Source of the DNA: Crocosphaera subtropica ATCC 51142
GTDB lineage: Bacteria > Cyanobacteriota > Cyanobacteriia > Cyanobacteriales > Microcystaceae
Direction of reading: 5' to 3'
Assembly (NCBI RefSeq): GCF_000017845.1
Contig: NC_010546.1
Span: 1,410,001 to 1,442,000, forward strand
Length of the DNA: 32,000 nt
Positions within the stretch are counted from its first letter, which is position 1. Each line of letters begins with the position of its first letter. The notes under the pieces are model-generated. The model saw only the letters and a list, made by a program, of their open reading frames with translations, made no database searches and was not told where the DNA came from. Positions 1 to 24,558 of the stretch are shown here, one piece after another. Both the position numbers and the translations under genes were made by a program.

Positions 1-150
1 GTTAATGAAAGACAGTTACACATTTTTCGTCAACCCACTTCAGAAGGATATAAAAATTGCTTTATCTTAACAGAAGAAGAAGAGATTAATTTATCACACT
101 TTTCTCAGATTCGTTTATCAATTCAAGCTATGTTACCACCCAAAATCTAA
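1..150 (+). CDS. Uma2-family (DUF820) endonuclease, C-terminal fragment; the 5' end lies outside the window
   Basis: Frame 1 is open from base 1 to TAA at 148-150. The translation VNERQLHIFRQPTSEGYKNCFILTEEEEINLSHFSQIRLSIQAMLPPKI fits the usual Uma2 C-terminal pattern (v.vyR.P..g.Y ... l.l..f..l.l.v..l). It also resembles the tail of the pseudogene at 27184-27315. Confidence 0.55.
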   Translation, partial: VNERQLHIFRQPTSEGYKNCFILTEEEEINLSHFSQIRLSIQAMLPPKI

Positions 151-157
151 AGAAAAC

Positions 158-799
158 TTATGTTATTGTTTGCTTTACCCATTGTCTAAACTGTTTTAAA
201 GCTTTTGCGCTACCTATTGTTTGGGCTATTTTTAAAGTTTCTGGGATTTTTTGAATAAGATTAAATTGTGGAAATAGATAACTTTGATCTTTGATAATAT
301 ATCGACCACCTTGTAAAATATTAATCTCTAATCTTTGTCCATTATATCGCCATAGTTCAGGAACTCCTAACGCTTCATAATTATTAAATAAAGTACGATT
401 AGTTATATCAATTTCAATCGCTAAATCAGGAGGTGGATCGTTATCTAAATTGATTCTTTCTTTGCCTCGAATTTTTGTACAATTATCAATGTAAAAAGAC
501 TCATCAGGTTCACCCCCTTGATCCATTATTTGACTTTTGAAAGTTGTTGATCCGGCTGCTTCATAATCTAAGTTTAATTCATCCAGAAGAATTCTAATTA
601 AATCCCCTATTAAAACCTTAGTATTTTCATGAATAAATAAAGGGGTCATAATTTCTAAAGTACCCTGACTATAGGATAAACGAATACTTCGATGTTCTCC
701 TAATTCTTCTAAAATTTCCTCATAATCTTGCCATTTTAAGGCAGTTAATATTAAGCGATCGCCGGGAGGTATTTCTAATTGTTTTAAAGTCAATAACAT
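158..799 (-). CDS. Uma2-family (DUF820) putative restriction-endonuclease-like protein, full length
   Basis: 213-aa ORF with an ATG start. N-terminal pattern W.DYEEIL...RLSYSQGTLEIMTP, catalytic-core-like PPPDLAIEIDITN, and C-terminal GVPELWRY...RLEINIL. These are typical of the cyanobacterially expanded Uma2 family. Confidence 0.85.
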   Translation of the reverse strand: MLLTLKQLEIPPGDRLILTALKWQDYEEILEELGEHRSIRLSYSQGTLEIMTPLFIHENTKVLIGDLIRILLDELNLDYEAAGSTTFKSQIMDQGGEPDESFYIDNCTKIRGKERINLDNDPPPDLAIEIDITNRTLFNNYEALGVPELWRYNGQRLEINILQGGRYIIKDQSYLFPQFNLIQKIPETLKIAQTIGSAKALKQFRQWVKQTIT

Positions 800-932: not shown

Positions 933-2051
933 TTAATTAAACAGTTCTTTAACAGCCATTGCCACTTGTTGCATTTGTTCTTCTGTTAATGCTAACCCAC
1001 TAGGAATATAAAACCCTCGACGGGATAATCTTTCTGACACTGGACAAGAAACGTCTTTTAATAATCCCATTTTATGGAATACCGGCTGTTCGTGCATCCC
1101 CCAGAAAAAGGGACGAGTCCCTATGCTTTTCTTCCGTAACCGTTCCATTGCTTCTGCTGCATCAAAGGGAACTTCATCTTTTAAAACCATCCCATAAACC
1201 CAATAAATATTATCTGCATAATCGGTTTTAACTAAGGGTAATTCTAATTGAGGAATATCTGATAAGAGTTCAGTATAAATTGCCCCCATTTTGCGCTTTC
1301 GTTGCACAAATTCTGGTAATCTTTCTAATTGTGCTAACCCTACCGCAGCTTGTAAGTTTGTAAAGCGAAAATTCCAGCCTAATTCTTCATGAATAAATCG
1401 TCTTTGAGGTTGAAAACAAAGGTTTCGTAAGGAGCGACATTTTTCCGCTAAACTATCATCATCGGTGACAATCATTCCTCCTTCTCCTGTGGTAACGTGC
1501 TTGTTAGGATAGAAGCTGAAGGTACTAATATCCCCAAAACCACCGCAAGGTTGACCCCTGTAAGTTTGTCCGTGCATTTCTGCTGCATCTTCGATAATTT
1601 TTAAGCCATGTTTCTTGGCAATTTCTAACACAGGTTTCATATCAACTGGTAGGCCATATATATGCACCACCATAATCGCTTTTGTCTTGGGGGTAATTTT
1701 AGCTTCTATTTGATTAACATCCATATTCCAGGTAACGGGGTCACAGTCTACTACTATTGGAATACCTCCCGCCCTGACAATAGCTGCACCACAGGATATG
1801 ATAGTAAACGTGGGTAAAATGACTTCATCCCCTGCTTGGATGTTTAAAGCAACCACAGCAGCATCTAAAGCAACAGAACCATTACAGACAGTAATGGCGT
1901 GTTTTCTACCAACGGTTTGAGCAAATTCTGCTTCAAACTTTTTCACAAAAGGCCCTTCTGAAGAAATCCACCCCGTATCAATGCATTCGTTTAAATATTT
2001 TTTTTCATTACCATCGAGTAAAGGTTCATTAACAGGAATAAAGTCAGCCAT
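933..2051 (-). CDS. DegT/DnrJ/EryC1/StrS-family PLP-dependent sugar aminotransferase (ArnB/perosamine-synthase-like)
   Basis: 372 aa. N-terminal IPVNEPLLDGNEKKYLNECIDTGWISSEGPFVKKFE. PLP-lysine motif FSFYPNKHVTTGEGGM. Overall length is typical of the family. Confidence 0.9.
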   Translation of the reverse strand: MADFIPVNEPLLDGNEKKYLNECIDTGWISSEGPFVKKFEAEFAQTVGRKHAITVCNGSVALDAAVVALNIQAGDEVILPTFTIISCGAAIVRAGGIPIVVDCDPVTWNMDVNQIEAKITPKTKAIMVVHIYGLPVDMKPVLEIAKKHGLKIIEDAAEMHGQTYRGQPCGGFGDISTFSFYPNKHVTTGEGGMIVTDDDSLAEKCRSLRNLCFQPQRRFIHEELGWNFRFTNLQAAVGLAQLERLPEFVQRKRKMGAIYTELLSDIPQLELPLVKTDYADNIYWVYGMVLKDEVPFDAAEAMERLRKKSIGTRPFFWGMHEQPVFHKMGLLKDVSCPVSERLSRRGFYIPSGLALTEEQMQQVAMAVKELFN

Positions 2052-2098: not shown

Positions 2099-2554
2099 TT
2101 ATTTTACGTCGGCTTCACTTCCATCAATACCTGAAAAGCGAACTTTATCATTATCTCCCACATAAGGACCCTGTTTGACTTCAATCATTTCTAATTCTTC
2201 TAATACTTCAAATCCATGACCCCCTTTAATTAATAAAATAACATCCCCTGATTTTAAAATACGGCTTTCTAAATAATCTCGATCGTCATTATAAAAATCA
2301 ACCCGAAGTTTTCCCCTTTTAATTAATAAGACTTCTTGGGTATAAAAAACTTCTCTACGAACCTGTTTATGAATGTGAGGTTGAATGATTTTCCCTTCAG
2401 GATGTCTCATATAAGCAAGTTGCTGAGAGAAACTATCAGGGGTGAAAAAATGAATTCCTGGTTGACGAAACTCAGAAGGAAGAATAATGGCTAATACTTG
2501 ACCATTATAAGTGATTTCTTCGATCATGGTTTGAGTATTGGTTTGTTGAATCAT
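2099..2554 (-). CDS. Small cupin-fold protein of polysaccharide loci (WbuC/WxcM-like; exact activity unknown)
   Basis: 151 aa with His-containing beta-barrel motifs (IIQPHIHKQ ... GDVILLIKGGHGFEV). It lies 47 nt upstream of the aminotransferase on the same strand. It lacks the RGxHAH signature of FdtA-type isomerases, so only the fold is called. Confidence 0.55.
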   Translation of the reverse strand: MIQQTNTQTMIEEITYNGQVLAIILPSEFRQPGIHFFTPDSFSQQLAYMRHPEGKIIQPHIHKQVRREVFYTQEVLLIKRGKLRVDFYNDDRDYLESRILKSGDVILLIKGGHGFEVLEELEMIEVKQGPYVGDNDKVRFSGIDGSEADVK

Positions 2555-2644: not shown

Positions 2645-4474
2645 TTAGTTAACTGAATTTCTAGAGATCAGTTTTCCTTCGTACATCGCATATTTTCCTT
2701 TATCTCCTAAAGAATTAAATATGACTTGAAAACTAGCGTTATCATTATCTTCTTTTGTAAATACTTTAGAGGTCAAATCGGGAATTTCACACTTACGGTA
2801 AGGATAACAAACATAGATAAACTCTGATTTATTATTCTTGATTAAAGTTTGACCTAATTTAACTAAATTTTCAGGTTTATCAACCCGAAAAAATAGTTTA
2901 TCCTTTCTCAAAGGAGATTCTAATAGTTGGGCTGCATATTGATGAGAAACCACCACAACTTGACGAGGATCATTCCCCAAAAATTCAATGGCTTCAGTAA
3001 CTCCCCGATGGGTTTTCTGGAAAAAATCAGTCCCTAGATATATGTTCTTGTATAATCCAATCATCAGGAAGATTGAAAATAAGAAAATTGTGTAATATTT
3101 AATCAAGTATTGCGATGTTTGTAAAAACAACTTTAATTGTTTAACAATCATAATTGAGAAAAAAGGAAGTAAAATTAATAAATATCTTTGTCCCCATTGT
3201 TTTCCACCAACAGCAATTTCATCGGAACCCGAATCCACTAATAAAGCGACTCCAGTAGTAAATAATAAGCTCATCACATAAATGAAAGCCATTCTTTGGT
3301 TAATCTTAATGTCTTCTTTTTTACTGAGAAATAACCAAATTGCTGATAATATAACTAAAATTCCGTAGGTTTTAACAAAAAGCTTAATTTCTGTCAATCC
3401 ATGAGTATTAACCCAATAGACACTGGTGATTAAAGAAAAAATAATTAAAGTAATGAAAATTATTCGTGGTATTTTTTCCTGAAAGCTTTTGGTAATGAGA
3501 AATAACAATAGATAGAGTAAGGAAAAACAGGCAACAGGAAAATACTCGAAAAACGTTACAATAATCTCTAAAAAGCTCTCCCAAGCTTCCGTTAAACGTC
3601 TTATTATAGAAAATTCTTCAACAATTTGTAAGGCATGAATTCCTAAAAAATGACCGTAAATTAACTTATTACTAATAAAAAATAAACCAACAGTAGCATA
3701 CATTGTTAAAATAAAAATCCATCCTTTATCCCCTAAATACAACAGGTTATCTAATTTCATTTTCTTGGCCAGATTAAATTCTCTATCTGACTGAAAATTA
3801 GATGATAGTCGTACAATTGTCATGATTCCTACTAGAAATGTTAAAGTAGCAATCATGGCTAAAAATTCTGAACGTATCCAAGCAGATAAACCAACAAAAA
3901 ACCCACTTAAAATTGCTTCTTTTATGGTTACTGATTCCCTAGGGACTAATAAAATAATCATGCCGATTAAACAAAAGAGAACAGCTAAAGTATGTTCCCA
4001 ATACATTCCACTGTATAAAGTTAAATTAGAAGCAAAAACCAAAAGAAATACCGCTAAACCTTGCTGAAACGGACTTAACTTTAAATAATAACAATAAACA
4101 TTGAAACTAATCCAAATTAACCAAGTAGAAACTAAAGGAATCACATATAAACCCCATTCACCAAATAAGGCATAAAAAGGGGCAGTCATTAAAGAAAATG
4201 GATAAGGAAAGGTAATGTAATAACGATCATTCAAATAGTAAACAAAAGGTTCTTCATAGGGATATAATCCATCCTGCCACAGTTGACGAACCCACTCAAC
4301 ATCAGGCTTAACTAAATCAATGCGAAAAATTCCCTCACTTAATTGTTGTGCTAATAAAGCTTTAAGACCACCGTCACCACTAAAATAAACCCCTTCCGGA
4401 ACTTGTCCCAGTAAATACAAAGAAAAAAGGACACCAGCACCTATAATAAACCAAGATAATCCATATCTAATCAT
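2645..4474 (-). CDS. Polytopic membrane protein, GT-C-type glycosyltransferase-like (ArnT/PMT-like architecture)
   Basis: 609 aa with more than 10 predicted hydrophobic helices, followed by a roughly 130-aa soluble C-terminal domain. It is the first gene of a co-directional trio with the cupin and aminotransferase genes. The family assignment rests on architecture and context only. Confidence 0.5.
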   Translation of the reverse strand: MIRYGLSWFIIGAGVLFSLYLLGQVPEGVYFSGDGGLKALLAQQLSEGIFRIDLVKPDVEWVRQLWQDGLYPYEEPFVYYLNDRYYITFPYPFSLMTAPFYALFGEWGLYVIPLVSTWLIWISFNVYCYYLKLSPFQQGLAVFLLVFASNLTLYSGMYWEHTLAVLFCLIGMIILLVPRESVTIKEAILSGFFVGLSAWIRSEFLAMIATLTFLVGIMTIVRLSSNFQSDREFNLAKKMKLDNLLYLGDKGWIFILTMYATVGLFFISNKLIYGHFLGIHALQIVEEFSIIRRLTEAWESFLEIIVTFFEYFPVACFSLLYLLLFLITKSFQEKIPRIIFITLIIFSLITSVYWVNTHGLTEIKLFVKTYGILVILSAIWLFLSKKEDIKINQRMAFIYVMSLLFTTGVALLVDSGSDEIAVGGKQWGQRYLLILLPFFSIMIVKQLKLFLQTSQYLIKYYTIFLFSIFLMIGLYKNIYLGTDFFQKTHRGVTEAIEFLGNDPRQVVVVSHQYAAQLLESPLRKDKLFFRVDKPENLVKLGQTLIKNNKSEFIYVCYPYRKCEIPDLTSKVFTKEDNDNASFQVIFNSLGDKGKYAMYEGKLISRNSVN

Positions 4475-4533
4475 TTTTATTAAACGGCTTTTATTAGCTA
4501 AACTGAGACAATGTTATACCATGTTAAAGGATT

Positions 4534-5472
4534 ATGCAGAAACTTTTGAGGTTAGCTCCTTGGGCGATCGCAGCAACCGCAGCCTGGTCATTGGGCTTTG
4601 TCTATAATGTCTATTATGGTGGTGAATTAAGCTTCTTACGGGGGATGTATTTTGAAAAAATGTCTCTAGCAGCAGAGGTTAAAGCGTCTCCTCGCTTATT
4701 AATTTTAGGCGGGTCAGGGGCCCATCATTCCATTGATTCTGAGGTTTTATCGCAAAAATTAGGTATACCTGTCCTCAACATGGGATTAGATGGCCCTGTA
4801 GGTTTAAATGTGATTTTACCGAGTATTCTTAAAGCTGTGCGTCCTGGCGATATTGTATTATTAATCCCCGAAGATTTGATATTACTGGATAAAGATGGCT
4901 TATTAGAACGTTCGGCCCCTTTTGGTATTGCCACCGGACGACCGGGACTGGGTGGAGTTCCTCCTCAACAGTTAGTGGAAACTATCTGGATGCAGGGAGT
5001 TCCGAGTCTGAGGGCTATCACAAAATCAACGGTTGACCTAGTTCAACAAGGCCGTTTTACAGGATACTATTCCGACCCATTAACCGAAAGAGGTGATCCC
5101 ACCACGGTAAAATATCGCGAAGGAAAATGGTGGCAATGGAAAATTCATAACTCTATTTCTCCCCATGCTGTTAAACGGATTAAACAGTTTCGTCAAGAAG
5201 TTGAAGCCAAAGATGCTAGTTTAATCCTATCTTTGCCTTGGGTTTATGCCAGTAAAGATGAAAAAACCTTATCAAATATGGAGGACATAACGAAAAAATT
5301 AAGCAACATTGCTCCCCTTGTTTATGATAAAAATGATTACAATCTAAAAACTGATTCTAGTCTCTTTGCTGATACCCATCATCACCTCGTTTTTGAAGCT
5401 AGAAAACTGAGATCAGAACAATTAGCCGAACAATTAAAACCTGTTATCAATAGAGTAACCAGCGACCAGTGA
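4534..5472 (+). CDS. Membrane-anchored hypothetical protein with SGNH/AlgX-DltD-like motifs (possible glycan O-acyltransferase or esterase)
   Basis: 312 aa. N-terminal hydrophobic anchor (APWAIAATAAWSLGFVY). Block-I-like LLILGGSGAHHSID. C-terminal FADTHHHL resembles the DxxH/DTHW catalytic block of SGNH-like acyltransferases. ATG start at 4534. Confidence 0.4.
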   Translation: MQKLLRLAPWAIAATAAWSLGFVYNVYYGGELSFLRGMYFEKMSLAAEVKASPRLLILGGSGAHHSIDSEVLSQKLGIPVLNMGLDGPVGLNVILPSILKAVRPGDIVLLIPEDLILLDKDGLLERSAPFGIATGRPGLGGVPPQQLVETIWMQGVPSLRAITKSTVDLVQQGRFTGYYSDPLTERGDPTTVKYREGKWWQWKIHNSISPHAVKRIKQFRQEVEAKDASLILSLPWVYASKDEKTLSNMEDITKKLSNIAPLVYDKNDYNLKTDSSLFADTHHHLVFEARKLRSEQLAEQLKPVINRVTSDQ

Positions 5473-5485
5473 CCAGTTAAGAGTT
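5458..5485. repeat. Heptamer tandem repeat (ACCAGNN x3-4; STRR-like) spanning the stop codon of the 4534-5472 gene
   Basis: accagcg accagtg accagtt aagagtt read directly. The last codons (T-S-D-Q-stop) are encoded by the repeat. Confidence 0.85.
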
Positions 5486-5549
5486 AGTATATAAAAATAT
5501 AAAAAATAATTTTGCAATTCTCACTTTATAACAACAGTTAATAACCGAT

Positions 5550-7448
5550 ATGAATCAAGAAAAGCTATCAAAATTAACTAATATTTTTGGCTTAGATTTG
5601 CGATCGCTTGCTATTTTTAGGATCGGTTTAGCGTTGGTGGTAATGGCTGATTTATTCAGTCGATTTAGGTCAGTTTCTGCTCACTATACGGATCAAGGGG
5701 TACTACCAAGACAAGTGTTACACCCTAATCTTTTTGCTTCTTTTATCGCCTTTAAATCAGCTAATAATTCTTTACTTCATCCTTGGTATTGGTCTTTCAA
5801 TTTACTCAATGGTAGTTTATTATTTCAAGTTTTTTTATTTATAATTGCTTTTATTATTTGTTTATTCTTATTAGTTGGTTATCGTACGAGATTAGCTGTT
5901 ATTGCTGTTTGGGCGTTAAATATTTCTTTACAAAATCGTAATCCTGCTTTGATTTTTGCAGGGGATGATGTTTTAAGGGCGATGCTTTTTTGGTCGATGT
6001 TTTTACCATTAGGTTGCGCTTATTCCATTGACAGTGCCTTAAATTCTAACCCGAAACCTTTGCCAAAAAGGGTTATGAATGCAGCAACTGTGGCCTTTAT
6101 GGTACAACTAATATTTATTTATACTTGGTCAGCAGCTTACAAAACAAAAAGTGAATTATGGTGGCCCAATGGCGATGCGGTTTATTATTCCCTACATTTT
6201 GATCAATATGCCACAGAATTTGGCCATTTTTTATTAGGATTTCCTATTCCTATTTTACAAATACTCACCTTTGGGGCGTTAATTTTCGAATGGATTGGAC
6301 CGTTTTTAATTTTTATTCCCTTTCGTACTAGCTTCTTTCGTTGTGTTGCTATTATTTCTTTTATTCTCTTACATATTGGTTTTGAATTATGTTTTGCTAT
6401 TGGGGTTTTAAGTTATCTAAGTATTATTAATTGGTTAGCATTATTGCCCACAGAAGTGTGGGATCAAGCTCAAGAAAAAATTAACATTCAATCTAGAAAA
6501 GGTTTAACGATTTACTATGATAAAGACTGTGGTTTTTGTAAGAAAGTCGTTCATGGAATTCGCACGTTATTAATCTTACCAGGTACTCCCTTATTAATGG
6601 CACAAGATCATCAATCCATCTATGAAGATATGTTAGAAAAAAATTCTTGGGTTGTGGTAGATTGGCAAGATAATCGTCATTATAAATTTGAAGCGATCGC
6701 TTATGTGGTGAGTCTCTCCCCTATTCTTTCTTTCTTACAACCTTTATTACGTTGGAAACCAGTGATGAAGGGAGGAACAAAGTTCTATGAAATGATTGCT
6801 TCTAACCGAAAAGTGGCTGGTAACTTTACCAAACCTTTTAAGTTTCGTCCTTTAAGCATTAATTCTTCTTTACCGTTTAATCTCACGGTATTAGTATTAT
6901 TGTTATTAACAACTATGTGGAATCTAAAAGGGTTTGTTGATCAAACAGTGGCCCGTAATAAAGAATATCGTGACAATAATAAAAAAGATTGGATTTTATT
7001 TACCCGTAATTTTTTAAGTCGTCGTACCTTTCAATATATTGATATTATTGGTTATCTCACCCGTTTAGATCAATCTTGGAGTATTTTTGCCCCTGCACCC
7101 CCAAGGGATGATGGTTGGCACGTTATTATTGGAACATTAAAGAACGGAAAAACTGTCAATCTTTTGGATAAAAATAGTCCGCTTCGTTGGGAAAAACCCA
7201 CTTTGAGACAACGGCGACAACTCTATCAAACCATTCAATGGCGAGTCTATTATATTAATCTGAATCGTGCTATTGGACAAAAACTTTATCCTTATTTTGT
7301 CGACTATTTAATTCGAGAATGGAATAGTCAACATTCTCCTGATCAACAGTTAGAAAGTCTAGAAATTTACTTTATAGAAGAACGAACCGTTCCTCCTGGA
7401 CAACAACAACCCCTTAATAAGAAAAAAGTCTGGCCAAAATCGTTGTAA
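5550..7448 (+). CDS. HTTM (vitamin K-dependent gamma-carboxylase-like) membrane domain fused to a DCC-family (DUF393) CxxC thiol-disulfide oxidoreductase, plus a C-terminal TM helix and extra domain
   Basis: 632 aa. HTTM-type N-terminus FGLDLRSLAIFRIGLALVVMADLFSRF...YTDQGVLP, followed by multiple TM helices (about aa 12-305). DCC motif IYYDKDCGFCKKVVHGIR (Cys327/Cys330, nt 6528-6539). Another TM helix at about aa 441-457. C-terminal domain with DQSWSIFAPAPPRDDGWHVIIGTLKNGKTVNLL. Confidence 0.75.
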   Translation: MNQEKLSKLTNIFGLDLRSLAIFRIGLALVVMADLFSRFRSVSAHYTDQGVLPRQVLHPNLFASFIAFKSANNSLLHPWYWSFNLLNGSLLFQVFLFIIAFIICLFLLVGYRTRLAVIAVWALNISLQNRNPALIFAGDDVLRAMLFWSMFLPLGCAYSIDSALNSNPKPLPKRVMNAATVAFMVQLIFIYTWSAAYKTKSELWWPNGDAVYYSLHFDQYATEFGHFLLGFPIPILQILTFGALIFEWIGPFLIFIPFRTSFFRCVAIISFILLHIGFELCFAIGVLSYLSIINWLALLPTEVWDQAQEKINIQSRKGLTIYYDKDCGFCKKVVHGIRTLLILPGTPLLMAQDHQSIYEDMLEKNSWVVVDWQDNRHYKFEAIAYVVSLSPILSFLQPLLRWKPVMKGGTKFYEMIASNRKVAGNFTKPFKFRPLSINSSLPFNLTVLVLLLLTTMWNLKGFVDQTVARNKEYRDNNKKDWILFTRNFLSRRTFQYIDIIGYLTRLDQSWSIFAPAPPRDDGWHVIIGTLKNGKTVNLLDKNSPLRWEKPTLRQRRQLYQTIQWRVYYINLNRAIGQKLYPYFVDYLIREWNSQHSPDQQLESLEIYFIEERTVPPGQQQPLNKKKVWPKSL

Positions 7449-7509
7449 TCTGAAATCTTGCACCAGAACAAATAAACTAACCAATGTTATCGAAGGTGCA
7501 GGATATGAG

Positions 7510-8964
7510 TTAGATAATTTGTGGACGAAACTCAGAAACCGAAAAACGATTTCTTCCCATATCTTTAGCTTGATACAGTGCTTTATCCGCAGCTTTAATT
7601 AACTTTTGAGGTGAAACTTGTGGCGTGGGTATAGTGGTAGCAACTCCCAGACTCAAGGTAACATAAGAACTACACTTAGAACAATAGTGAGGTATCTCTA
7701 AAGCTTCGATGGCATTACAGAGTTCTTGCGCTACCTTTTCGGCTCCTAAGCGGTTGGTATTAGACAGAATAATGACAAATTCTTCCCCTCCAAACCGTGC
7801 CACTAAATCTGCCGGTCTTTTGACTAAATTTTTGAGACATTGAGCAACTTTATATAAACATTTATCTCCCGCTTGATGGTAATAATAATCATTATAAAGT
7901 TTAAAATAATCAACATCACAGACAATCAAAGAGATAAACTTTCTTTCCCTTGCTAATCTTCGCCATTCTCTCCTCAAATATTCATTAAAGTAACGTCGGT
8001 TATAAACTTGAGTCAGTTCATCTATTGTGGCTAAATGTTTTAATTTTTCGGTGGCTTTCTCTAACTCTTGATTGGAGGTTGCTAAGGCATTATTAGCCTC
8101 TTCTAATGCTTCAGTCCGTTCAACCACTTTTTGTTCTAAGGTCTGGGAATATTCGATAAGTTGATTATAGTATTGGGTACTTTGAATAGCAATAGCAGCT
8201 TGAGAGGTAAGGGCGGTAAATAATTTCAATTGTTCACTGGTATATTTAATCAATTCATTATGAGTAACTTTAATCACTCCAATGGTTTTATTTTGTACTT
8301 TTAACGGCGCACAAATTAGGGATTGAATATTAGGATCTTGAGGAATATATCGAGAGTCTTTGCGAACATTATTAACAATTTCTGCTTTTCCAGAACGTAA
8401 TACATAACCAGTAATACTTTCAATACTGCCTTGTCTTTTATTTAACTTTTTGTCTCGATAATAAAAAATATCTAGCTCTCCTTTTTGGGTTAATAATATA
8501 ACAGAAATTTGAGAATTTGTGAGAAATTTATTAGTTTCATCGGTAATAACTTCCATGATTTCTTCAAAACTTAAACATCTTGAAAGTTTATGAGAGATAT
8601 CTGATAAAAAGTTTATTTCTTCATATTTTTCTAATGTATCAGCAGCCAATAATTTTTTTTCAAATTCTTCGTTAACAATATAATTTAACATTTGAGAAAC
8701 TACGTCAATTGCATTGGTTTCTCCATTAACTTTTCCTAAAATTTGCTGATTGACCAAAATAGGATAATGATGATTAAAGCTATTATTAAAATTTCCCCAA
8801 AGTATATTTTCTTGGGTATCGCTAATAAAAAATGAGATATTAAATGTCTTCGTAAAATTTTCTAATAACGAATTAAGCTTAGGTTTATTCAGTAACTTTT
8901 TTAATTTAACCTGAATCATGATGAGGTTAAGGAACAAGGTTAGGTTATTCCCATTATACTTCAT
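7510..8964 (-). CDS. GAF-domain diguanylate cyclase (GGDEF; active-site GGEEF with RxxD I-site)
   Basis: The track ORF begins at a TTG (8967). The first ATG is at 8964, which overlaps the upstream receiver gene by 11 nt. The order is an N-terminal domain of unknown function (about 110 aa), a GAF region, a coiled coil (EALEEANNALATSNQELEKATEKLKHLA) and a GGDEF domain. That domain has DELTQVYNRRYF, DVDYFKLYND and KRPADLVARFGGEEF, with RxxD five residues before GGEEF. Confidence 0.9.
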   Translation of the reverse strand: MKYNGNNLTLFLNLIMIQVKLKKLLNKPKLNSLLENFTKTFNISFFISDTQENILWGNFNNSFNHHYPILVNQQILGKVNGETNAIDVVSQMLNYIVNEEFEKKLLAADTLEKYEEINFLSDISHKLSRCLSFEEIMEVITDETNKFLTNSQISVILLTQKGELDIFYYRDKKLNKRQGSIESITGYVLRSGKAEIVNNVRKDSRYIPQDPNIQSLICAPLKVQNKTIGVIKVTHNELIKYTSEQLKLFTALTSQAAIAIQSTQYYNQLIEYSQTLEQKVVERTEALEEANNALATSNQELEKATEKLKHLATIDELTQVYNRRYFNEYLRREWRRLARERKFISLIVCDVDYFKLYNDYYYHQAGDKCLYKVAQCLKNLVKRPADLVARFGGEEFVIILSNTNRLGAEKVAQELCNAIEALEIPHYCSKCSSYVTLSLGVATTIPTPQVSPQKLIKAADKALYQAKDMGRNRFSVSEFRPQII

Positions 8965-9337
8965 CAATTCCTAGAATTTCTTTGGACTTTCGTAAGACCT
9001 CTTTAGGACGAAATGGTTTTGTAATATAGAGATCCGCTCCAGCTTCCATTCCGCTTTCTTCATCAAAACTTTGTCCCCTAGCCGTTAGAAGAATAACATA
9101 AACATGGGAAAGACGATGATCTTTTTTGACTGTTTCACAGACTTCTAGTCCACTAATATGGGGCATCATTACATCTAAAAAGACAAGATCAGGCTGTTCT
9201 TGCTTAATAATTTCTAATGCTTGTTCTCCGTCTTTAGCTGTTAATAGTAATACGCCCGCATCTTCTAAATCTTCTAAAATTTGTTCCATTAAAATGATAA
9301 TATTGGGTTCATCATCAACAATTAAAATTTTTTTCAT
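8954..9337 (-). CDS. Single-domain response regulator (CheY-like receiver)
   Basis: 127 aa. MKKILIVDDEP, phospho-acceptor context DLVFLDVMMP, LLTA, and KPF at the C-terminal end. No output domain. Confidence 0.95.
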   Translation of the reverse strand: MKKILIVDDEPNIIILMEQILEDLEDAGVLLLTAKDGEQALEIIKQEQPDLVFLDVMMPHISGLEVCETVKKDHRLSHVYVILLTARGQSFDEESGMEAGADLYITKPFRPKEVLRKSKEILGIDEV

Positions 9338-9643
9338 TCTTAGTGTTTCAAGTCAATTTTCTCTTAAGGTTTAAAGATAAAAAATCAAATTACTTAAGGT
9401 ATTATTCCTTTAGAAAAAAACATAGCAAAGATAGACATCAAATAGTTAAATACTATTTAATATCAACTAAATATTATTAAGTTGTAAAGATTGTTTTCCT
9501 CAATTGATAAATATTTGCATTATTGGTTAAATAGTGCTTTAATCAATTAAAGGATAGTTATGTTTTTTCTGAATTACCGTAAAGTTACTATACGGCCAAC
9601 TTCTATCTTAACATTAAAAAATAGTTATGATCCGTTTAATCGT

Positions 9644-12600
9644 TTAATTATCTTTTGCTAAGGGAAGACTCACAAAAAATGTGCTTCCTTTTTGTCGTTC
9701 GCTGGTAAACCAAATTTTCCCTCCATGTTGTTCGATAATTTGTTTAGAAATGGATAAACCTAATCCAGTTCCTTTGGGTTTGTTAGTTAAAATATTGCCC
9801 ACCTGTTGAAATGGCTCAAATACCTTACTATAATCATTTTCTGCAATTCCTATGCCTGTGTCGGTAATAGAAATCAATAAATTATCGTGATCTACCTCTC
9901 CATGACAGGTAACCGATCCTGTTTCTGTAAATTTAAACCCGTTAGAAATCAAATTAACAAACACTTGAATTAAGCGATCTTCATCCCCTAGAATCGTCGG
10001 TAACTCTTCAGGAAAATCTTCGATTAACTCTACAGAAGAATCTTCAAATAAAGGAGCAGTCGAAGCGATCGCCCAAGTCAACACTGTACTGGGTTTAACT
10101 GGGAATAAACTCAGGGTGATTTTCCCTGATTCTATTTTCGTCATGTCCAAAAAGTCGTTCACTAATTTGGTTAATCTTTCTGCTTCAAACACCACAATAT
10201 CTAAATTCTGTTTAATCCGTTCTACGGCTTTATCAACTTTCTTATCCTTCTCTTGTATTTGGGGAAAAACCACGGCATGGAGTTTATCTCGAATTAAAGA
10301 AGAAAAACCCACAATAGAAGTCAAAGGCGTTCTTAATTCATGGGAAACCATGGATAAAAAGTTCCGTTTCATCCGTTCCATTTCCCGTTCTTTGGTAATA
10401 TCTCGAATTAAAATAACAACTCCGAGATATTCTTCTCCCGATTCTACTTGTTCCTTAATAATATTACTGGCTAATGCTTGACCAATGCGATTATTCGATA
10501 GAGGAATTTCAACAGCCACCACTTTCTTTTGATCTAATTTTTTGCGTTCCAATAAAGGAGATAACTCTTCAGGAAAGATATCTAACAGTTGCTTTCCCAA
10601 TAAAGGAAGGGTCACATTAAACATCGAAACTAAACTAGGGTTGTAGCGTGTAATTCTTCCGTAGATATCGGCCACCAATAACCCATCTCCCAAATTATCA
10701 ACGATCGCATTAAGATCCGCTAACGTCGTCTGTAATGTCTCTGACTGTTCCTGTGTTTGCCTCAATAACTCACTTTGATGAACCGCAACCCCCAACTGGT
10801 TTCCTACCTGTTTAAGCAAGTCAATTTCTCGTTTATACCAATAGCGAGGCTTTTGATTATCATAAGCTCCTAAAATTCCCCAAAGTTTCTCCCCCACAAA
10901 GACAGGAACCGTAAGCAAAGCCTTAACTTGGAATTGCTGTAAAAGTTCTCGATGACAAGGGGTTAACTGGGCCGTATCAATATCACTCACCCAAAAAACT
11001 TCCTGGTTACGGTATCGTCCCCCTTGGGTTTCTTGGAGATAGGTATCTTCCCAAATGGGAGGTTCTGCTGTATCTCCTCTCAGGGGTTTCCACCCTGGTG
11101 CGAGGGACTCGTATAAAAATTCCCCTCCCCAATTTTCCCAAAAACGATACACTACCACACGATCGCAGTTTAATATGTGTCTAACTTCTTCGGTGGTTGA
11201 GGCAAAAATAGAATCTAATTTTAAACTTTGGCGAATTCGTTCAATTACCCGTGCTAAGGCTTTTTCTTGACCTGCTACCTCAGCTAAATGTTGCTTTTGA
11301 ACTTGAACTTGTTTTAACGTTTTTTCGAGAATCTTAGCACGTTGCTGACTTTCTTGGAGTAAGGCTGCTTGTTGAATAGCCACACTGAGATGGGTCGCTA
11401 TTTTGGTAATAAAGCCTTTTTCTAAGGGTTTCCATTGGCGAGGAGAGGAACATTGATGAACACAAATTAACCCCCAAAGTTCTTCTCCTATCAACAAGGG
11501 AGCGACCATATTAGCTTGAACTCCGAACCGCTCTAAAATTTGACGATGACAGTCAAGTAAGTCAGCTTGGCTCAGATCATTAATGGTAAAAACGTGACCC
11601 TGTTGATAATAGGGTCCTTTATATTTAGCAAAACAGTGATCCTCCACTTGTTCTTGTAGGGCCGAGGGATAACCAGAGGTAACATCTTCTGAAACCAATT
11701 CTGCTAGAGCAAATTGTGAGTCGGGGTCAAACTTAAAAATAGCCACTCGATCCGCATTCAGAAGATGACGAACTTCTGTAACTGCTGTTTGAAAAATAGT
11801 TTCTAAATCTAAAGTACGACGGATTTTATCGATCACTTCCGATAAAGCTCGCTCTTGCTGAACCATCATCGCCTGTTCTTGTCCATACTCTTGAATGCGT
11901 CGAACATGAAAGCTTTGTTGTAAAGCGACACTAATATGATGAGCCACTCGTTTTAAGAGGTGAATTTCGTCATGTTGCCACTGTCTGGGATGAGTATGTT
12001 CAAACCCTGCCAATAGTCCCCATAATTGAGGTCCTTGGAACAGAGGTACAATGGCTAAGGCTCTCACCCCAAAACTTTCTAAAATTCGTAAGTGACAGTC
12101 AGAGAAACGATAATCTTCCTGAATATCGTCAATAATACAGGGTTCATTCTCTCTAAATCTTCCTCCTTGGGTTTGTTGTAAATAATCATCATTCCAGGTT
12201 ACTCCAGCAAAAGAAGCAAACTTCCCAGGATCAGACTCAAAAATAAACTGTCCCCCATAACTGGGATCGAACCGATAAATTGTAATATGTTCAACCCCTA
12301 GCAGTTTCTGCATTTCCGTAGCGGCCGTTTGAAAAATGGTATTTAAGTCGAGGGTTTGACGAATTTTATCAATCACTAGCCCCAGCGATCGCTCTTTTTG
12401 GTTGATTTTGATTAAGGTATCTGCTTGTTCTTTTAAAGCGGTTTCTAAGGCAGTTTGTAGTTGTTGTTCATGTTGTTGGGTTTTGGCCAAAAGATCCCCT
12501 TGTTGCAAGGCAATGCCTAAATTGACCCCAACTTGTACCATAAAGTTGATTTCTGTGGTTTCCCAACAACGGGGACCATCATTGTGATAGGCGGCAAAAA

Positions 12601-17832: not shown

Positions 17833-18384
17833 TTAAAACGGAAGACGAGGCACTTTACTGACAAACCCTTCTATACTTTGATAAATTTCTGCTAAGCGAT
17901 CGCCGTCTACATGAATTTCTTCAGTAGGATAGTTTTCAAATATTTCAATTAAGCGTATATTTTTATCAGATAAAGCAGAGGTAACTAATGCCCCTCTTAA
18001 GGATTCTCGATTCGCTCGTTTTGATGGGGTATGAATCACTTCTCCAATGGGATCGAGTACGATTCCTCCTGCAAAACTATTAAGGGCTTTTGATAAAAAA
18101 ACGGGATCAACATCCACATTATTATTTAATAATGTCCTTAATTCTTCTGGCTCTTTATTAGCTAATTTTAAATAGGATCTTAAGGATCTTGAGGCTTCTC
18201 CTGTGTTAGCTAAGTGACTTAATTCTTCAACGGAAACAGATTCTCGTAAAATACTATATTTTAAGATAACTCTTTCGGCTGCTTGCGCTGGTACTTTAGC
18301 TGAAAATAGCCCTAACAGAGAAAATAAGAGGCTCAACATAATTTGAGGTTTTTTAGATAGCTTTTTCTTCTGTGTCATCATCAT
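17833..18384 (-). CDS. Secreted protein resembling the cyanobacterial DUF1400 domain (normally the N-terminal module of putative alpha/beta hydrolases)
   Basis: 183 aa. Signal peptide ending AQA-AE. The segment ERVILKYSILRESVSVEELSHLANTGEASRSLRSYLKL...VDVDPVFLSKALNSFAGGIVLDPIGEVIHTPS matches my recollection of DUF1400. No hydrolase domain follows. Confidence 0.55.
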   Translation of the reverse strand: MMMTQKKKLSKKPQIMLSLLFSLLGLFSAKVPAQAAERVILKYSILRESVSVEELSHLANTGEASRSLRSYLKLANKEPEELRTLLNNNVDVDPVFLSKALNSFAGGIVLDPIGEVIHTPSKRANRESLRGALVTSALSDKNIRLIEIFENYPTEEIHVDGDRLAEIYQSIEGFVSKVPRLPF

Positions 18385-24409: not shown

Positions 24410-24558
24410 GTGTGCTTTCGTCCTTAACCATTGCCTAATTCTACACAATAATAAAAGGTCGCTATTGATGGCTCAAAAACTATCATTATTTTTGGGAGCT
24501 TTAAACCCAAATTTTCGGTAGAATTGAAATTTGTTTGACGACTTAACTCAGCCTAAAG

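What the first reader, a model, noticed from the sequence alone, without database searches (positions are those of the whole stretch)
5550..7448. Single-polypeptide fusion of a vitamin-K-carboxylase-like HTTM domain with a CxxC (DCC/DUF393) thiol-disulfide oxidoreductase
The N-terminal roughly 300 aa carry the HTTM signature (LDLRSLAIFRIGLALVV...YTDQGVLP plus multiple TM helices). The HTTM family includes the vertebrate vitamin K-dependent gamma-glutamyl carboxylase and the Bacillus SdpB toxin-maturation protein. A DCC-type redox module follows directly (YYDKDCGFCKK, Cys327/Cys330), then another TM helix and a roughly 175-aa domain.

In animals the carboxylase depends on a separate CxxC enzyme, VKOR, to recycle the quinone cofactor. 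Cyanobacteria synthesise phylloquinone (vitamin K1) for photosystem I. A fused carboxylase-like and CxxC-reductase protein in a phylloquinone producer is therefore a plausible self-contained quinone-dependent protein or peptide modification enzyme. I know of no characterised example.
Basis: partly seen in the sequence, partly recalled or inferred. Interest (0 to 1): 0.7.

Follow-up and report, generated by a model that had tools for sequence, protein, structure and literature searches.

The report
Carboxylase-like membrane protein with thioredoxin-like insert
This cyanobacterial gene encodes a membrane protein related to the animal vitamin K-dependent carboxylase, with a thioredoxin-like CxxC domain inserted on the cytoplasmic side; it belongs to a very large, already annotated but untested bacterial family, and its gene neighbours point to cell-envelope sugar modification rather than peptide carboxylation.

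Summary
ORF 5550..7448(+) encodes 632 aa: an HTTM/GGCX-type membrane domain (residues 16-310), a DCC1-like CxxC domain (321-427, C327/C330), one more TM helix (441-469) and a 163-aa C-terminal domain.

Foldseek finds only human GGCX structures (E 8e-6). A family profile aligns to GGCX at 94-96% probability. The GGCX catalytic Lys218, Trp223, Asp263 and His287 have conserved equivalents (K198, W204, E247, H275). The CO2-stacking Phe299 is Leu in this protein.

The fusion is not rare. There are 10,507 clusters at 50% identity, public names already exist, and a 2026 preprint discusses an HTTM+DCC1 protein as a GGCX-like system. No member has been tested.

Homology with GGCX, loop charges and a covarying Cys pair in the C-terminal domain place the CxxC in the cytoplasm, opposite the Lys site. 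No conserved small or Glu-rich ORFs lie nearby.

The window protein belongs to a cyanobacterial subfamily linked to aminosugar and GT-C glycosylation genes and an SGNH-like partner. A sister subfamily sits next to a type II NADH:quinone reductase and MBOAT/acyl-carrier genes.

My best reading is a quinol-dependent GGCX-like enzyme acting on an envelope glycoconjugate, with cytoplasmic-side redox recycling. The mechanism is inferred, not shown.

The parts
5550..7448 (+). Whole gene: HTTM/GGCX-like membrane domain, DCC1-like domain, TM helix and C-terminal domain (632 aa)
   Evidence: ORF list. More than 1,433 homologues of 610-635 aa. 10,507 clusters at 50% identity with E<=1e-3.
5595..6479 (+). 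HTTM/GGCX-type transmembrane domain, residues 16-310 (eight helices, equivalent to GGCX TM1-TM8)
   Evidence: hhalign aligns window 15-299 with GGCX 59-311 at 96% probability, E 1.9e-9, and at 94% against a GGCX profile. Foldseek finds only GGCX structures. Helices come from the AF2 model.
5721..5762 (+). Insertion of 14 aa (residues 58-71) in the first outer loop, seen only in the window protein and its closest Crocosphaera relative (P0001); low model confidence
   Evidence: Alignment A1. pLDDT is below 50 for residues 63-72.
6141..6143 (+). Lys198 codon, equivalent of the GGCX catalytic base Lys218. Trp204 (equivalent of W223) lies 6 residues downstream.
   Evidence: Invariant in 30 close and 66 diverse homologues. 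Aligned to K218 by hmmsearch and hhalign. Translation checked.
6510..6830 (+). DCC1-like thioredoxin-fold domain, residues 321-427. It is inserted where GGCX has its TM8-TM9 loop and is predicted to be cytoplasmic.
   Evidence: PF04134 at E 1.6e-5, matched by 63/66 family members. Flanking linkers are strongly positive.
6528..6539 (+). CGFC redox motif (Cys327, Cys330) within D324-x-x-C-x-x-C
   Evidence: Translation. Cys is present in 64/66 diverse homologues at both positions. These are the only conserved Cys outside the C-terminal domain.
6870..6956 (+). Last transmembrane helix, residues 441-469 (position of GGCX TM9)
   Evidence: AF2 helix 441-469. Hydropathy. N458 is invariant.
6957..7445 (+). 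C-terminal domain, residues 470-632, predicted extracytoplasmic. Its conserved core motif is T504-RLDQSWSIFAPAPPRDDGW-523 (nt 7059-7118). No Pfam family matches.
   Evidence: Q508 is invariant; W510, F513, P515, P517, G522 and W523 are at least 90% conserved. A covarying Cys pair occurs in most homologues (66 both, 14 neither, 0 mixed) but is absent here. There is no significant match to the GGCX lumenal domain or to PDB structures. DUF5819 hits are weak only.
4534..5472 (+). Upstream partner gene (312 aa): N-terminal TM anchor plus SGNH/GDSL-like domain. It lies 78 bp upstream on the same strand.
   Evidence: Same strand and upstream in 40/80 cyanobacterial loci. Invariant GGSGA, DGP and FADTHxH motifs. 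UniRef names the 100% identical C. subtropica ATCC 51142 protein 'SGNH/GDSL hydrolase family protein'. No Pfam, NCBIfam or PDB sequence hit.
2645..4474 (-). Divergently transcribed GT-C-type putative glycosyltransferase (609 aa)
   Evidence: NF047440 LA_3751/LA_3752 family, E 2.7e-122. Linked to subfamily-A HTTM-DCC genes in 19-20 loci.
2099..2554 (-). WbuC-like cupin (151 aa)
   Evidence: TIGR04366 at E 6.6e-8, below the cut-off. Co-conserved in 18-19 loci.
933..2051 (-). DegT/DnrJ/EryC1-type sugar aminotransferase (372 aa)
   Evidence: PF01041 at E 5e-117. Co-conserved in 20 loci.

Best explanation
Shown by tool results. The gene encodes a polytopic inner- or thylakoid-membrane protein of the HTTM/GGCX superfamily. 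Its eight-helix core keeps the equivalents of the GGCX quinol-deprotonating Lys and its supporting residues at the outer membrane face. A DCC1-like thioredoxin-fold domain with a conserved CxxC is inserted in the loop that is cytosolic in GGCX. A ninth helix then leads to a conserved extracytoplasmic domain.

Inferred mechanism. The outer-face site binds a membrane quinol and O2. In cyanobacteria the quinol would most plausibly be phylloquinol or another naphthoquinol. As in GGCX, the site converts the quinol to an oxygenated strong base and then an epoxide, in order to activate a C-H bond of a substrate presented at the periplasmic or lumenal surface. The cytoplasmic CxxC domain uses cytoplasmic thiol reducing power to return the oxidised quinone or epoxide to a usable state after it moves to the inner leaflet. 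NAD(P)H:quinone reductases complete the reduction.

Inferred substrate. In this subfamily the substrate is probably not a Glu-rich peptide. More likely it is a product or intermediate of the co-conserved envelope pathway: DegT aminotransferase, WbuC cupin, polyprenyl-phosphate GT2, GT-C transferase and an SGNH-like partner. That means a lipid-linked or surface glycoconjugate. Because the CO2-stacking Phe is Leu here, the outcome may be something other than carboxylation, for example epoxidase-coupled deprotonation or oxidation.
For: Architecture and homology:
- Foldseek finds only GGCX (E 8e-6).
- The family profile matches GGCX at E 4.9e-6, and hhalign gives 94-96% probability.

Catalytic equivalents (residue roles from PMC12647623):
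- K198 = K218, invariant.
- W204 = W223.
- E247 = D263.
- H275 = H287.
- Q186 = Q206.
- Y191 = Y211.

DCC domain: 63/66 members match PF04134, and the CxxC is present in 64/66.

Topology:
- GGCX has 9 TM helices with lumenal loops after the odd-numbered ones.
- Across 66 homologues, loop K+R density is 0.164 inside against 0.057 outside, and the DCC linkers carry net charges of +2.9 and +2.4.
- The C-terminal domain has a strictly covarying Cys pair (66 both, 14 neither, 0 mixed), as expected for a disulfide in an oxidising compartment.

Quinone link:
- A type II NADH:quinone oxidoreductase homologue (best PDB relatives YjlD, S. aureus NDH-2 and 4nwz, E 5e-32 to 3e-27; FSP1 is also among the hits) lies directly upstream on the same strand in 33/80 loci of the sister subfamily.
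- It lies directly downstream of a subfamily-A gene in L020.

Substrate context:
- DegT, GT-C, the WbuC cupin and GT2 are each found with subfamily A in 18-21 loci; the SGNH-like partner lies upstream in 40/80 loci, in both subfamilies.
- A GT2-GtrA gene, a polysaccharide deacetylase and GT-C genes lie beside distant homologues.
- No conserved small ORFs were found.

Independent literature: an AF3 model of a Firmicute HTTM+DCC1 protein places menaquinol next to the conserved Lys and Trp.
Against: - No biochemical data exist for any member.
- The CxxC is on the opposite face from the Lys site, so direct VKOR-like recycling at the active site is excluded. Recycling would require the quinone species to flip between leaflets.
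- The window locus has no NDH-2 gene within 32 kb. NDH-2 linkage is essentially a property of the sister subfamily.
- Phe299, needed for CO2 positioning in GGCX, is Leu287 here and throughout subfamily A.
- Alignment of the GGCX Glu-binding loop (N159/H160) is unstable between methods, and Y395 has no demonstrable equivalent.
- The C-terminal domain shows no significant similarity to the GGCX lumenal domain.
- Gene context is conserved only within cyanobacteria. No f1, MBOAT or NDH-2 neighbours were seen in metagenome loci whose protein is at most 47% identical.
- DCC-family proteins have no established quinone or epoxide reductase activity (my knowledge; the literature search was uninformative).
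Confidence: 0.4

Rival explanations
1. Transmembrane thiol-quinone redox relay without C-H activation. The HTTM domain serves only as a quinone-binding membrane module. The DCC CxxC exchanges electrons between cytoplasmic thiols (thioredoxin or glutathione) and the quinone pool. This would adjust extracytoplasmic redox state or feed a periplasmic oxidoreductase. The idea is analogous to VKOR-Trx fusions, DsbB, or the role proposed for LMF1.
For: - Weak LMF1 (PF06762) matches over residues 190-301 occur in 12/30 and 4/66 members (best 3.5e-6).
- The CxxC is cytoplasmic, where thiol reductants are available.
- NDH-2 adjacency shows a quinone link but not its chemistry.
- DoxX hits and JGI names of the form 'DoxX/SURF4 family / DCC family' are present.
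Against: - The only conserved Cys outside the C-terminal domain are C327 and C330. There is no membrane Cys pair for a DsbB/DsbD/VKOR/LMF1-type relay.
- The residues that are invariant are exactly the GGCX quinol-deprotonation set (K198, W204, E247). A passive quinone site would not need these.
- The conserved extracytoplasmic domain and its motif next to the active-site face suggest substrate handling.
Confidence: 0.2
2. Accessory membrane enzyme or scaffold of a polyprenyl-phosphate-sugar (Arn-like) glycosylation pathway that does not use quinone chemistry. The isoprenoid-binding tunnel of the HTTM fold would bind the lipid carrier or lipid-linked aminosugar. The DCC domain would be regulatory or structural.
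For: - Subfamily A, including the window, is tied to DegT, the WbuC cupin, GT2 and GT-C genes and lacks NDH-2.
- Distant homologues sit next to GT2-GtrA, Polysacc_deac_1 and PMT-like GT-C genes.
- There are weak O-antigen polymerase Pfam hits.
- In GGCX the vitamin K tail runs through a hydrophobic tunnel formed by TM5-TM8.
- Phe299 is lost in subfamily A.
Against: - Strict conservation of the Lys/Trp/Glu/His set and of the CxxC in both subfamilies argues for retained redox catalysis.
- One subfamily-A gene (L020) is directly followed by NDH-2.
- There is no sequence or fold similarity to known flippases or GT-C enzymes.
Confidence: 0.15
3. One reading: a self-contained vitamin K-dependent gamma-glutamyl (peptide or protein) carboxylase. 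Its fused CxxC would act like VKOR on the same membrane face, modifying Glu-rich secreted peptides.
For: - GGCX homology and the conserved catalytic Lys.
- Cyanobacteria make phylloquinone (established knowledge).
- A bacterial HTTM carboxylase, MloH, exists.
Against: - The CxxC is predicted on the opposite face.
- No conserved small or Glu/Asp-rich ORFs were found in 81 loci.
- Phe299 is replaced by Leu, and the Glu-binding N159/H160/Y395 are not demonstrably conserved.
- No propeptide-clamp domain (PF22777) was detected.
Confidence: 0.07

Closest known systems
[quoted passage not shown]
   Same: - It shares the membrane-domain fold and collinear sequence over TM1-TM8: window 16-298 aligns with GGCX 60-310.
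- Equivalents of Lys218, Trp223, Asp263 (as Glu), His287, Gln206 and Tyr211 are conserved.
- The active site lies on the extracytoplasmic face.
- A further TM helix is followed by an extracytoplasmic domain.

   Different: - A 107-aa DCC thioredoxin-fold domain replaces the short TM8-TM9 loop.
- There is no detectable clamp/lumenal domain (PF22777) or C-terminal domain of GGCX type.
- The Phe299 equivalent is Leu in this protein.
- The Glu-binding residues are not demonstrably kept.
- Identity is about 15%.
- No peptide substrate genes lie nearby.
Firmicute HTTM+DCC1-like protein with adjacent TM+DUF5819 partner (Melghirimyces thermohalophilus A0A1G6IBF2/A0A1G6IAS5; bioRxiv 10.64898/2026.08.19.745780)
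   Same: - HTTM is followed by DCC1-like in one polypeptide.
- A conserved Lys and Trp lie near a modelled menaquinol.
- A TM helix plus an extracytoplasmic domain completes the assembly.
- It is proposed to be a GGCX-like system.

   Different: - Here the TM helix and extracytoplasmic domain are fused to the same chain.
- The C-terminal domain matches Pfam DUF5819 only weakly: E 0.049 for one C-terminal segment of 10, and 2 of 66 full-length members at E<=1, best 0.19.
- Its equivalence to DUF5819 is therefore unproven.
- Neither system has been tested experimentally.
MloH, bacterial vitamin K-dependent carboxylase orthologue in malonomycin biosynthesis (Law et al. 2018, cited)
   Same: It is a bacterial HTTM-family enzyme. 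It shows that GGCX-type chemistry is used on non-Glu substrates.
   Different: - MloH acts in a PKS-NRPS cluster on an aspartyl intermediate.
- No DCC domain was reported in the texts I read.
- The window gene is not in a PKS/NRPS cluster.
- I did not compare the sequences directly.
VKOR and bacterial VKOR-Trx fusions (functional analogy only)
   Same: A CxxC redox module is coupled to a membrane quinone. Fusion of a thioredoxin-fold domain to a quinone-handling membrane protein is also shared.
   Different: - There is no sequence or fold relationship.
- VKOR carries its catalytic CxxC in a 4-TM bundle at the extracytoplasmic face.
- Here the CxxC is in a soluble-type domain on the cytoplasmic face, and the membrane domain has no conserved Cys.
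Dlt/MBOAT-type extracytoplasmic acylation systems and the Arn (lipid A aminoarabinose) pathway (context only)
   Same: - Neighbouring genes resemble ArnB (DegT), ArnC (GT2) and ArnT (GT-C).
- In the sister subfamily they resemble DltA (FAAL), DltC (carrier protein), DltB (MBOAT; TIGR04091 at 7e-48, below the cut-off) and DltD-like SGNH proteins.

   Different: No described Arn or Dlt system includes an HTTM-DCC protein, to my knowledge. Acceptor and donor are unknown.

Membership tests
HTTM / GGCX superfamily (PF05090) | Significant profile match to the HTTM domain | tested here: met
   The window protein alone gives no hit at E<=0.1. The family does: 8/30 and 35/66 members match (best 8.4e-17). 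The family profile matches GGCX at E 4.9e-6. hhalign gives 96% and 94% probability.
HTTM / GGCX superfamily (PF05090) | GGCX-like fold of the membrane domain | tested here: met
   The AF2 model has pLDDT 78. Foldseek returns 15 GGCX structures at E<=1e-3 and nothing else below E 0.5. TM-score is 0.34-0.40 over the whole chain.
GGCX-type vitamin K-dependent carboxylase or epoxidase | Catalytic base Lys218 with Trp223 and Asp263 | tested here: met
   K198 is invariant. W204 and E247 are at least 90% conserved in 66 diverse homologues. They align to K218, W223 and D263.
GGCX-type vitamin K-dependent carboxylase or epoxidase | CO2-positioning Phe299 | tested here: not met
   The window has Leu287, as do all 29 cyanobacterial subfamily-A proteins. 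Phe is present in at least 90% of the wider family and in subfamily B.
GGCX-type vitamin K-dependent carboxylase or epoxidase | Glu-substrate binding residues Asn159, His160 and Tyr395 (loops LL3 and LL9) | tested here: inconclusive
   HMMER and hhalign align the LL3 loop differently. In the hhalign profile alignment N131 = N159 and P132 = H160. The LL9 region has no significant alignment.
GGCX-type vitamin K-dependent carboxylase or epoxidase | Lumenal propeptide-clamp domain (PF22777) | tested here: not met
   - No PF22777 hit in the window protein or in any of 30 close and 66 diverse homologues, although all listed vertebrate GGCX sequences carry it.
- hhalign of the C-terminal profile against GGCX 340-520 gives E 0.24.
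- Foldseek with a C-terminal-only model (pLDDT 70) finds no GGCX.
GGCX-type vitamin K-dependent carboxylase or epoxidase | Quinol- and O2-dependent epoxidation coupled to carboxylation | not testable with these tools
   This needs biochemistry. The only indirect support is NDH-2 adjacency in the sister subfamily.
DCC1-like thiol-disulfide oxidoreductase (PF04134 / DUF393) | Profile match above the curated threshold | tested here: inconclusive
   The window protein scores 26.5 bits against a gathering score of 27.8, at E 1.6e-5. Homologues do match: 30/30 and 63/66 at E<=0.01 and E<=1, best 1.8e-13. Many carry a precomputed PF04134 annotation. The domain is therefore a member by homology transfer, although the window sequence itself is marginal.
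DCC1-like thiol-disulfide oxidoreductase (PF04134 / DUF393) | D-x-x-C-x-x-C motif at the start of the first helix of a thioredoxin-like fold | tested here: met
   D324-K-D-C327-G-F-C330 is present. D324 is at least 90% conserved and each Cys is present in 64/66. The model shows strand 320-323 followed by helix 328-340 and then a beta-alpha-beta-beta arrangement. The only structural hint is a weak glutaredoxin hit (6mws, E 3.1).
HTTM+DCC1 / DUF5819 system (2026 preprint) | A TM-anchored DUF5819 module completing the complex | tested here: inconclusive
   A TM helix plus an extracytoplasmic domain is fused at the C-terminus. PF19136 matches only weakly: E 0.049 for one C-terminal segment of 10 scanned, and E<=1 (best 0.19) for 2 of 66 full-length members.
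VKOR | 4-TM bundle with a catalytic CxxC at the extracytoplasmic face | tested here: not met
   There is no VKOR hit in Pfam or Foldseek. The CxxC lies in a soluble-type domain predicted to be cytoplasmic. The membrane domain has no conserved Cys.

The most novel reading that the evidence does not exclude
This would be a bacterial, single-polypeptide 'vitamin K cycle'. The outer-face GGCX-like site would oxygenate phylloquinol to generate a strong base. That base would carboxylate, or otherwise C-H-activate, a cell-envelope glycoconjugate or lipid-linked aminosugar. The fused cytoplasmic DCC CxxC domain would re-reduce the resulting quinone epoxide, with NDH-2 completing the cycle in the sister subfamily. 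It would be the first GGCX-type chemistry on a non-peptide, non-natural-product substrate. It would also be the first enzymatic function assigned to a DCC-family domain.
Probability: 0.15. Interest if true: 0.85.

Novelty: new member of a known kind. Interest (0 to 1): 0.45.

Why it matters
What bacterial GGCX homologues do is an open question. Only MloH has a known reaction. The HTTM-DCC architecture found here is abundant, with thousands of sequence clusters, yet no member has been tested.

This analysis adds testable structure to the question:
- The catalytic Lys set is conserved.
- The CxxC sits on the cytoplasmic face.
- The outer domain carries a covarying disulfide pair.
- Cyanobacteria have two subfamilies with distinct, conserved gene contexts. 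One is linked to aminosugar and GT-C glycosylation genes. The other is linked to NDH-2, MBOAT and FAAL/carrier-protein genes.

If the quinol-dependent reading is right, vitamin K-type chemistry would extend to bacterial envelope biogenesis, and the DCC family would gain a first biochemical role. If it is wrong, the protein remains an ordinary member of an annotated family of unknown function.

Tried and rejected
1. Direct PDB sequence searches with the window protein and the close-homologue profile found nothing. Only the more diverse profile A2 reached GGCX.

2. I aligned the C-terminal motif RLDQSWSIFAP to the GGCX LL9 loop (GLYGYSWDMM) by eye. hhalign did not support this against either the single GGCX sequence or the GGCX profile (E 0.24-0.29), so I dropped it.

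3. A separate AF2 model of residues 428-632 (pLDDT 69.8) gave no significant Foldseek hit. Equivalence of the C-terminal domain to the GGCX clamp or to DUF5819 therefore remains unproven. Pfam DUF5819 hits are only weak.

4. Profiles of the SGNH-like partner (f1) and of the 408-aa family f4 found no PDB sequence relatives and no Pfam or NCBIfam family.

5. The search for conserved small or Glu-rich ORFs was negative.

6. The promoter and terminator scan of 4300-7700 was at chance level.

7. I looked for the cyanobacterial context in more distant homologues. No recurrent neighbour family appeared in metagenome loci whose protein is at most 47% identical. The listing of cluster members gave no taxon names for distant representatives.

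8. Literature searches for HTTM in cyanobacteria and for DCC-family biochemistry found nothing useful.

9. I considered an apparent break-up of the locus in C. watsonii WH 8501 as evidence of dispensability. I rejected it because several unrelated neighbouring genes are also frameshifted in that assembly.


Full report
**1. Observation**

The motif YYDKDCGFCKK is present, with Cys327/Cys330 at nt 6528-6539.

For the DCC1-like domain:
- Pfam places PF04134 on residues 321-421 at E 1.6e-5.
- The score is 26.5 bits, just under the gathering score of 27.8.

For the HTTM domain:
- The window protein itself gives no Pfam HTTM hit at E<=0.1. It gives only a weak LMF1 match (E 0.013) over residues 190-301.
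- The HTTM call therefore cannot be made from this sequence alone with Pfam.

The upstream neighbour (4534-5472) is 100% identical to a protein of Crocosphaera subtropica ATCC 51142. That identifies the source organism. The closest listed homologue of the target protein is from C. chwakensis, at 90% identity.

**2. Family-level confirmation**

The protein has more than 1,433 homologues in the word-indexed search. They are nearly all 610-635 aa and cover 98-100% of the query. Several are named 'HTTM domain-containing protein' or 'DCC1-like thiol-disulfide oxidoreductase family protein' by NCBI.

An exhaustive HMMER search of 1.84 billion cluster representatives finds 10,507 clusters at E<=1e-3 and 4,002 at E<=1e-30. 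The top 150 are mostly full-length proteins of 585-640 aa.

| Alignment | Members | DCC1-like matches | HTTM matches |
|---|---|---|---|
| A1 (close homologues) | 30 | 30/30, best 5e-11 | 8/30, best 2.6e-10 |
| A2 (33% mean identity) | 66 | 63/66, best 1.8e-13 | 35/66, best 8.4e-17 |

The three-part architecture is therefore real, ancient and very common.

**3. Relationship to GGCX**

An AF2 model built on A1 has pLDDT 78 and pTM 0.79. Foldseek against the PDB returns 15 hits at E<=1e-3. All are human GGCX cryo-EM structures (best 9bur_A, E 8.1e-6, probability 1.0). The next hits have E>0.5.

Comparisons with it gave:
- The diverse profile A2 hits GGCX chains by sequence at E 4.9e-6.
- hhalign gives 96.3% probability (E 1.9e-9) for window 15-299 against GGCX 59-311.
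- hhalign gives 94% probability (E 1.3e-7) against a 22-sequence vertebrate GGCX profile.

The alignments agree on these residue equivalences:

| Window | GGCX | Note |
|---|---|---|
| Q186 | Q206 | |
| Y191 | Y211 | |
| W204 | W223 | stacks on K218 |
| E247 | D263 | next to K218 |
| H275 | H287 | |
| G285 | G297 | |
| Position 287 | F299 | stacks on CO2 |

The residue roles come from PMC12647623. K198 is invariant, and W204 and E247 are at least 90% conserved across 66 diverse homologues.

Two things are not conserved or not demonstrable:
- Position 287 is Phe in at least 90% of the wider family but Leu in the window protein.
- The loop carrying GGCX N159/H160 is aligned differently by HMMER and hhalign.

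**4. The C-terminal part**

After the DCC domain come a TM helix (441-469) and a conserved domain. Its core motif is T504-RLDQSWSIFAPAPPRDDGW-523. Q508 is invariant, and W510, F513, P515, P517, G522 and W523 are at least 90% conserved.

A 2026 preprint (bioRxiv 10.64898/2026.08.19.745780) describes a Firmicute 447-aa HTTM+DCC1 protein. Its adjacent TM+DUF5819 partner is modelled to sit where the GGCX clamp domains are. I therefore tested whether the window's C-terminal module is a fused DUF5819 or GGCX lumenal domain. The tests did not establish this:
- No PF22777 match was found in any member.
- DUF5819 hits are weak only: E 0.049 for one C-terminal segment of 10 scanned, and two of 66 full-length members at E<=1, best 0.19.
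- hhalign of the C-terminal profile against GGCX 340-520 is not significant (E 0.24-0.29).
- A C-terminal-only model (pLDDT 69.8) has no significant PDB neighbour.

The positional analogy holds: a last TM helix followed by an outer domain. Homology remains unproven.

**5. Topology**

GGCX has nine TM helices, with lumenal loops after TM1, 3, 5, 7 and 9. TM6 and TM7 are monotopic. The active site lies at the lumenal membrane interface.

The collinear alignment of TM1-TM8 places the DCC domain in the GGCX TM8-TM9 loop, which is on the cytosolic side. Two independent checks agree:
- Across 66 homologues, predicted inner loops have 0.164 K+R per residue against 0.057 for outer loops. The linkers flanking the DCC domain have net charges of +2.9 and +2.4.
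- Most homologues have two Cys in the C-terminal domain, at the position of I588 and near the C-terminus. These occur together or not at all. In 81 cyanobacterial sequences the counts are 66 both, 14 neither and 0 mixed. In A2 they are 53, 9 and 4.

This is the pattern of a structural disulfide in an oxidising, extracytoplasmic compartment. The window protein has lost both Cys.

Apart from this pair, C327 and C330 are the only conserved Cys. The membrane domain therefore has no thiol relay of the DsbB/DsbD/VKOR kind. The CxxC and the Lys198 site are on opposite faces.

**6. Gene context**

I took 80 cyanobacterial loci from the one-genome-per-species collection, clustered all neighbouring ORFs and named the families.

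| Family | Identity | Occurrence |
|---|---|---|
| f1 | Window gene 4534-5472; TM anchor plus SGNH/GDSL-like domain; invariant GGSGA, DGP and FADTHxH; UniRef name | Upstream, same strand, 40/80 loci |
| f3 | Type II NADH:quinone oxidoreductase homologue; best PDB relatives B. subtilis YjlD, S. aureus NDH-2 and 4nwz (E 5e-32 to 3e-27), with Ndi1 and FSP1 further down | Immediately upstream, 33/80 loci |
| f2 | DltB-like MBOAT | 36 loci, often two copies |
| f4 | 408-aa protein with GSS and DNSHY motifs | 27 loci |
| f7, f5, f6 | FAAL, acyl-CoA-dehydrogenase-like protein and carrier protein | 22-27 loci |
| f8 | GT2 | 21 loci |
| f9, f11, f10 | DegT, WbuC-like cupin and GT-C (LA_3751/LA_3752 family) | 18-20 loci |

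Sorting the loci by the motif at residues 285-290 splits them cleanly into two subfamilies:
- **Subfamily A** has the motif G-x-L-S-Y/F-L, with Leu at the F299 position. It comprises the window and 28 loci. It goes with DegT, the cupin, GT-C, GT2 and f1. It lacks NDH-2, MBOAT and FAAL, with two exceptions: L020 has every family on one strand with NDH-2 directly downstream, and L013 carries one f4 gene.
- **Subfamily B** has the motif G-x-F-P-x-L, with Phe kept. It goes with f1, MBOAT, NDH-2, f4 and FAAL/ACAD/ACP. In some taxa, such as Microcystis, it has no conserved neighbour.

Some Okeania genomes carry one copy of each subfamily (L014 and L029). K198, W204, E247, H275, C327, C330, Q508 and W510 are kept in both subfamilies, apart from alignment gaps at the W204 column in six Nostocales sequences and Lys for Q508 in L040.

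Further context results:
- The window itself has no MBOAT, NDH-2, f4, ACAD, carrier-protein or GT2 gene within 32 kb. It has a FAAL at 15.8-17.6 kb on the other strand.
- No small or Glu/Asp-rich ORF family is conserved near the gene.
- The 78-bp gap to the upstream gene has no terminator-like hairpin, and promoter-like matches are at chance level. Co-transcription is plausible but not shown.

Outside cyanobacteria the picture is less clear:
- A 456-aa homologue without the C-terminal domain is followed by GT2-GtrA, a polysaccharide deacetylase and a GT4.
- Another homologue lies next to a PMT-like GT-C.
- In 80 metagenome loci, the f1, MBOAT and NDH-2 neighbours appear only where the protein is at least 53% identical to the cyanobacterial type. 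The detailed context is clade-specific.

**7. Mechanism**

Shown:
- A GGCX-type membrane core with the quinol-deprotonation residues at the outer face.
- A conserved cytoplasmic CxxC thioredoxin-fold insert.
- A conserved outer domain.
- A conserved envelope-glycan gene context.

Inferred:
- The outer site uses a membrane naphthoquinol and O2, as GGCX does, to generate a strong base or epoxide for C-H activation of a substrate at the outer surface.
- The DCC domain returns the oxidised quinone species to the cycle from the inner leaflet, using cytoplasmic thiols.
- NDH-2 supplies quinol where it is encoded alongside.

For the window's subfamily the likely substrate is a product or intermediate of the aminosugar/GT-C pathway, not a peptide. 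With Leu in place of Phe299, carboxylation in particular is doubtful. I give this composite 0.4.

The rivals are:
- A pure thiol-quinone redox relay, like the role proposed for LMF1. It is weakened by the lack of membrane Cys and by conservation of the catalytic Lys set. I give it 0.2.
- A non-redox role in lipid-linked glycan handling. I give it 0.15.
I give it 0.07.

**8. Novelty**

The domain composition is already in public annotation. The idea that HTTM+DCC1 proteins form GGCX-like systems is in a 2026 preprint. MloH shows that bacterial HTTM enzymes can carboxylate. The window protein is one orthologue among thousands, so I rate it a new member of a known, uncharacterised kind.

What this analysis adds:
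- The residue-level GGCX equivalences for this family.
- The opposite-face topology of the CxxC.
- The covarying disulfide in the outer domain.
- The two cyanobacterial subfamilies with distinct conserved contexts.

Interest is moderate. The function is unknown and could prove remarkable, but nothing here shows that it is.

Noticed in passing
window 7510-13597 (- strand): A signalling cluster lies immediately downstream and convergent with the target gene. It comprises a GAF-GGDEF diguanylate cyclase (7510-8967), a stand-alone response regulator overlapping it by 14 nt (8954-9337), and a 1,317-aa multi-GAF/PAS histidine kinase (9644-13597). The GGDEF gene follows the target gene only in the closest Crocosphaera loci (4 of 80).
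   Followed up: partly
window 15799-17586 (-), 17833-18384 (-), 19941-20687 (+): A fatty acyl-AMP ligase (62% identical to the FAAL family that accompanies subfamily-B HTTM-DCC genes), a DUF1400 protein and a thioesterase lie 8-13 kb from the target. They may be a remnant or a separate lipid module. No carrier protein or MBOAT is present in the window.
   Followed up: partly
window 158-799 (-) and 24038-24448 (-): There are two Uma2-family putative restriction endonuclease genes, a family that is common in cyanobacterial genomes.
   Followed up: no
window 27583-29346 (+) and 22227-23879 (+): The 587-aa ORF (27583-29346) gives a weak PTPS_related match (E 5.6e-6, 25.5 bits, just below the 26.4 cut-off), a family described as a membrane protein. 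The 550-aa ORF (22227-23879) has no Pfam match. Neither was examined further.
   Followed up: no
L006 (Crocosphaera watsonii WH 8501, NZ_CP191777.1) 4800-11900: In this assembly the HTTM-DCC homologue contains an in-frame stop. The SGNH-like, GT-C, cupin and response-regulator genes are each split over two frames. Because unrelated neighbours are affected too, this may be assembly error rather than gene decay.
   Followed up: partly
L014 and L029 (Okeania sp. KiyG1); L017 and L038 (Okeania sp. SIO1I7); L019 and L034: Single genomes carry two HTTM-DCC paralogues in different gene contexts. One copy sits in the aminosugar/GT-C context, with Leu at the GGCX F299 position where residues were tabulated. 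The other sits in the MBOAT/NDH-2/carrier-protein context and keeps Phe. This argues for two distinct functions.
   Followed up: yes
window residue 588 (nt 7311-7313) and the C-terminus; alignments A1 and A2: The window protein, 13 other cyanobacterial sequences of the 81 compared and 9 of the 66 A2 members have lost both cysteines of a strictly covarying pair in the C-terminal domain: YLCRxWN and a C-terminal QSC. The pair is probably a disulfide in the other members.
   Followed up: yes
L081 (GCA_039817905.1) 1296-2666: A 456-aa homologue ends after the DCC domain, with no last TM helix or C-terminal domain. It is followed by GT2-GtrA, Polysacc_deac_1 and GT4 genes. No DUF5819 gene is called beside it.
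   Followed up: partly
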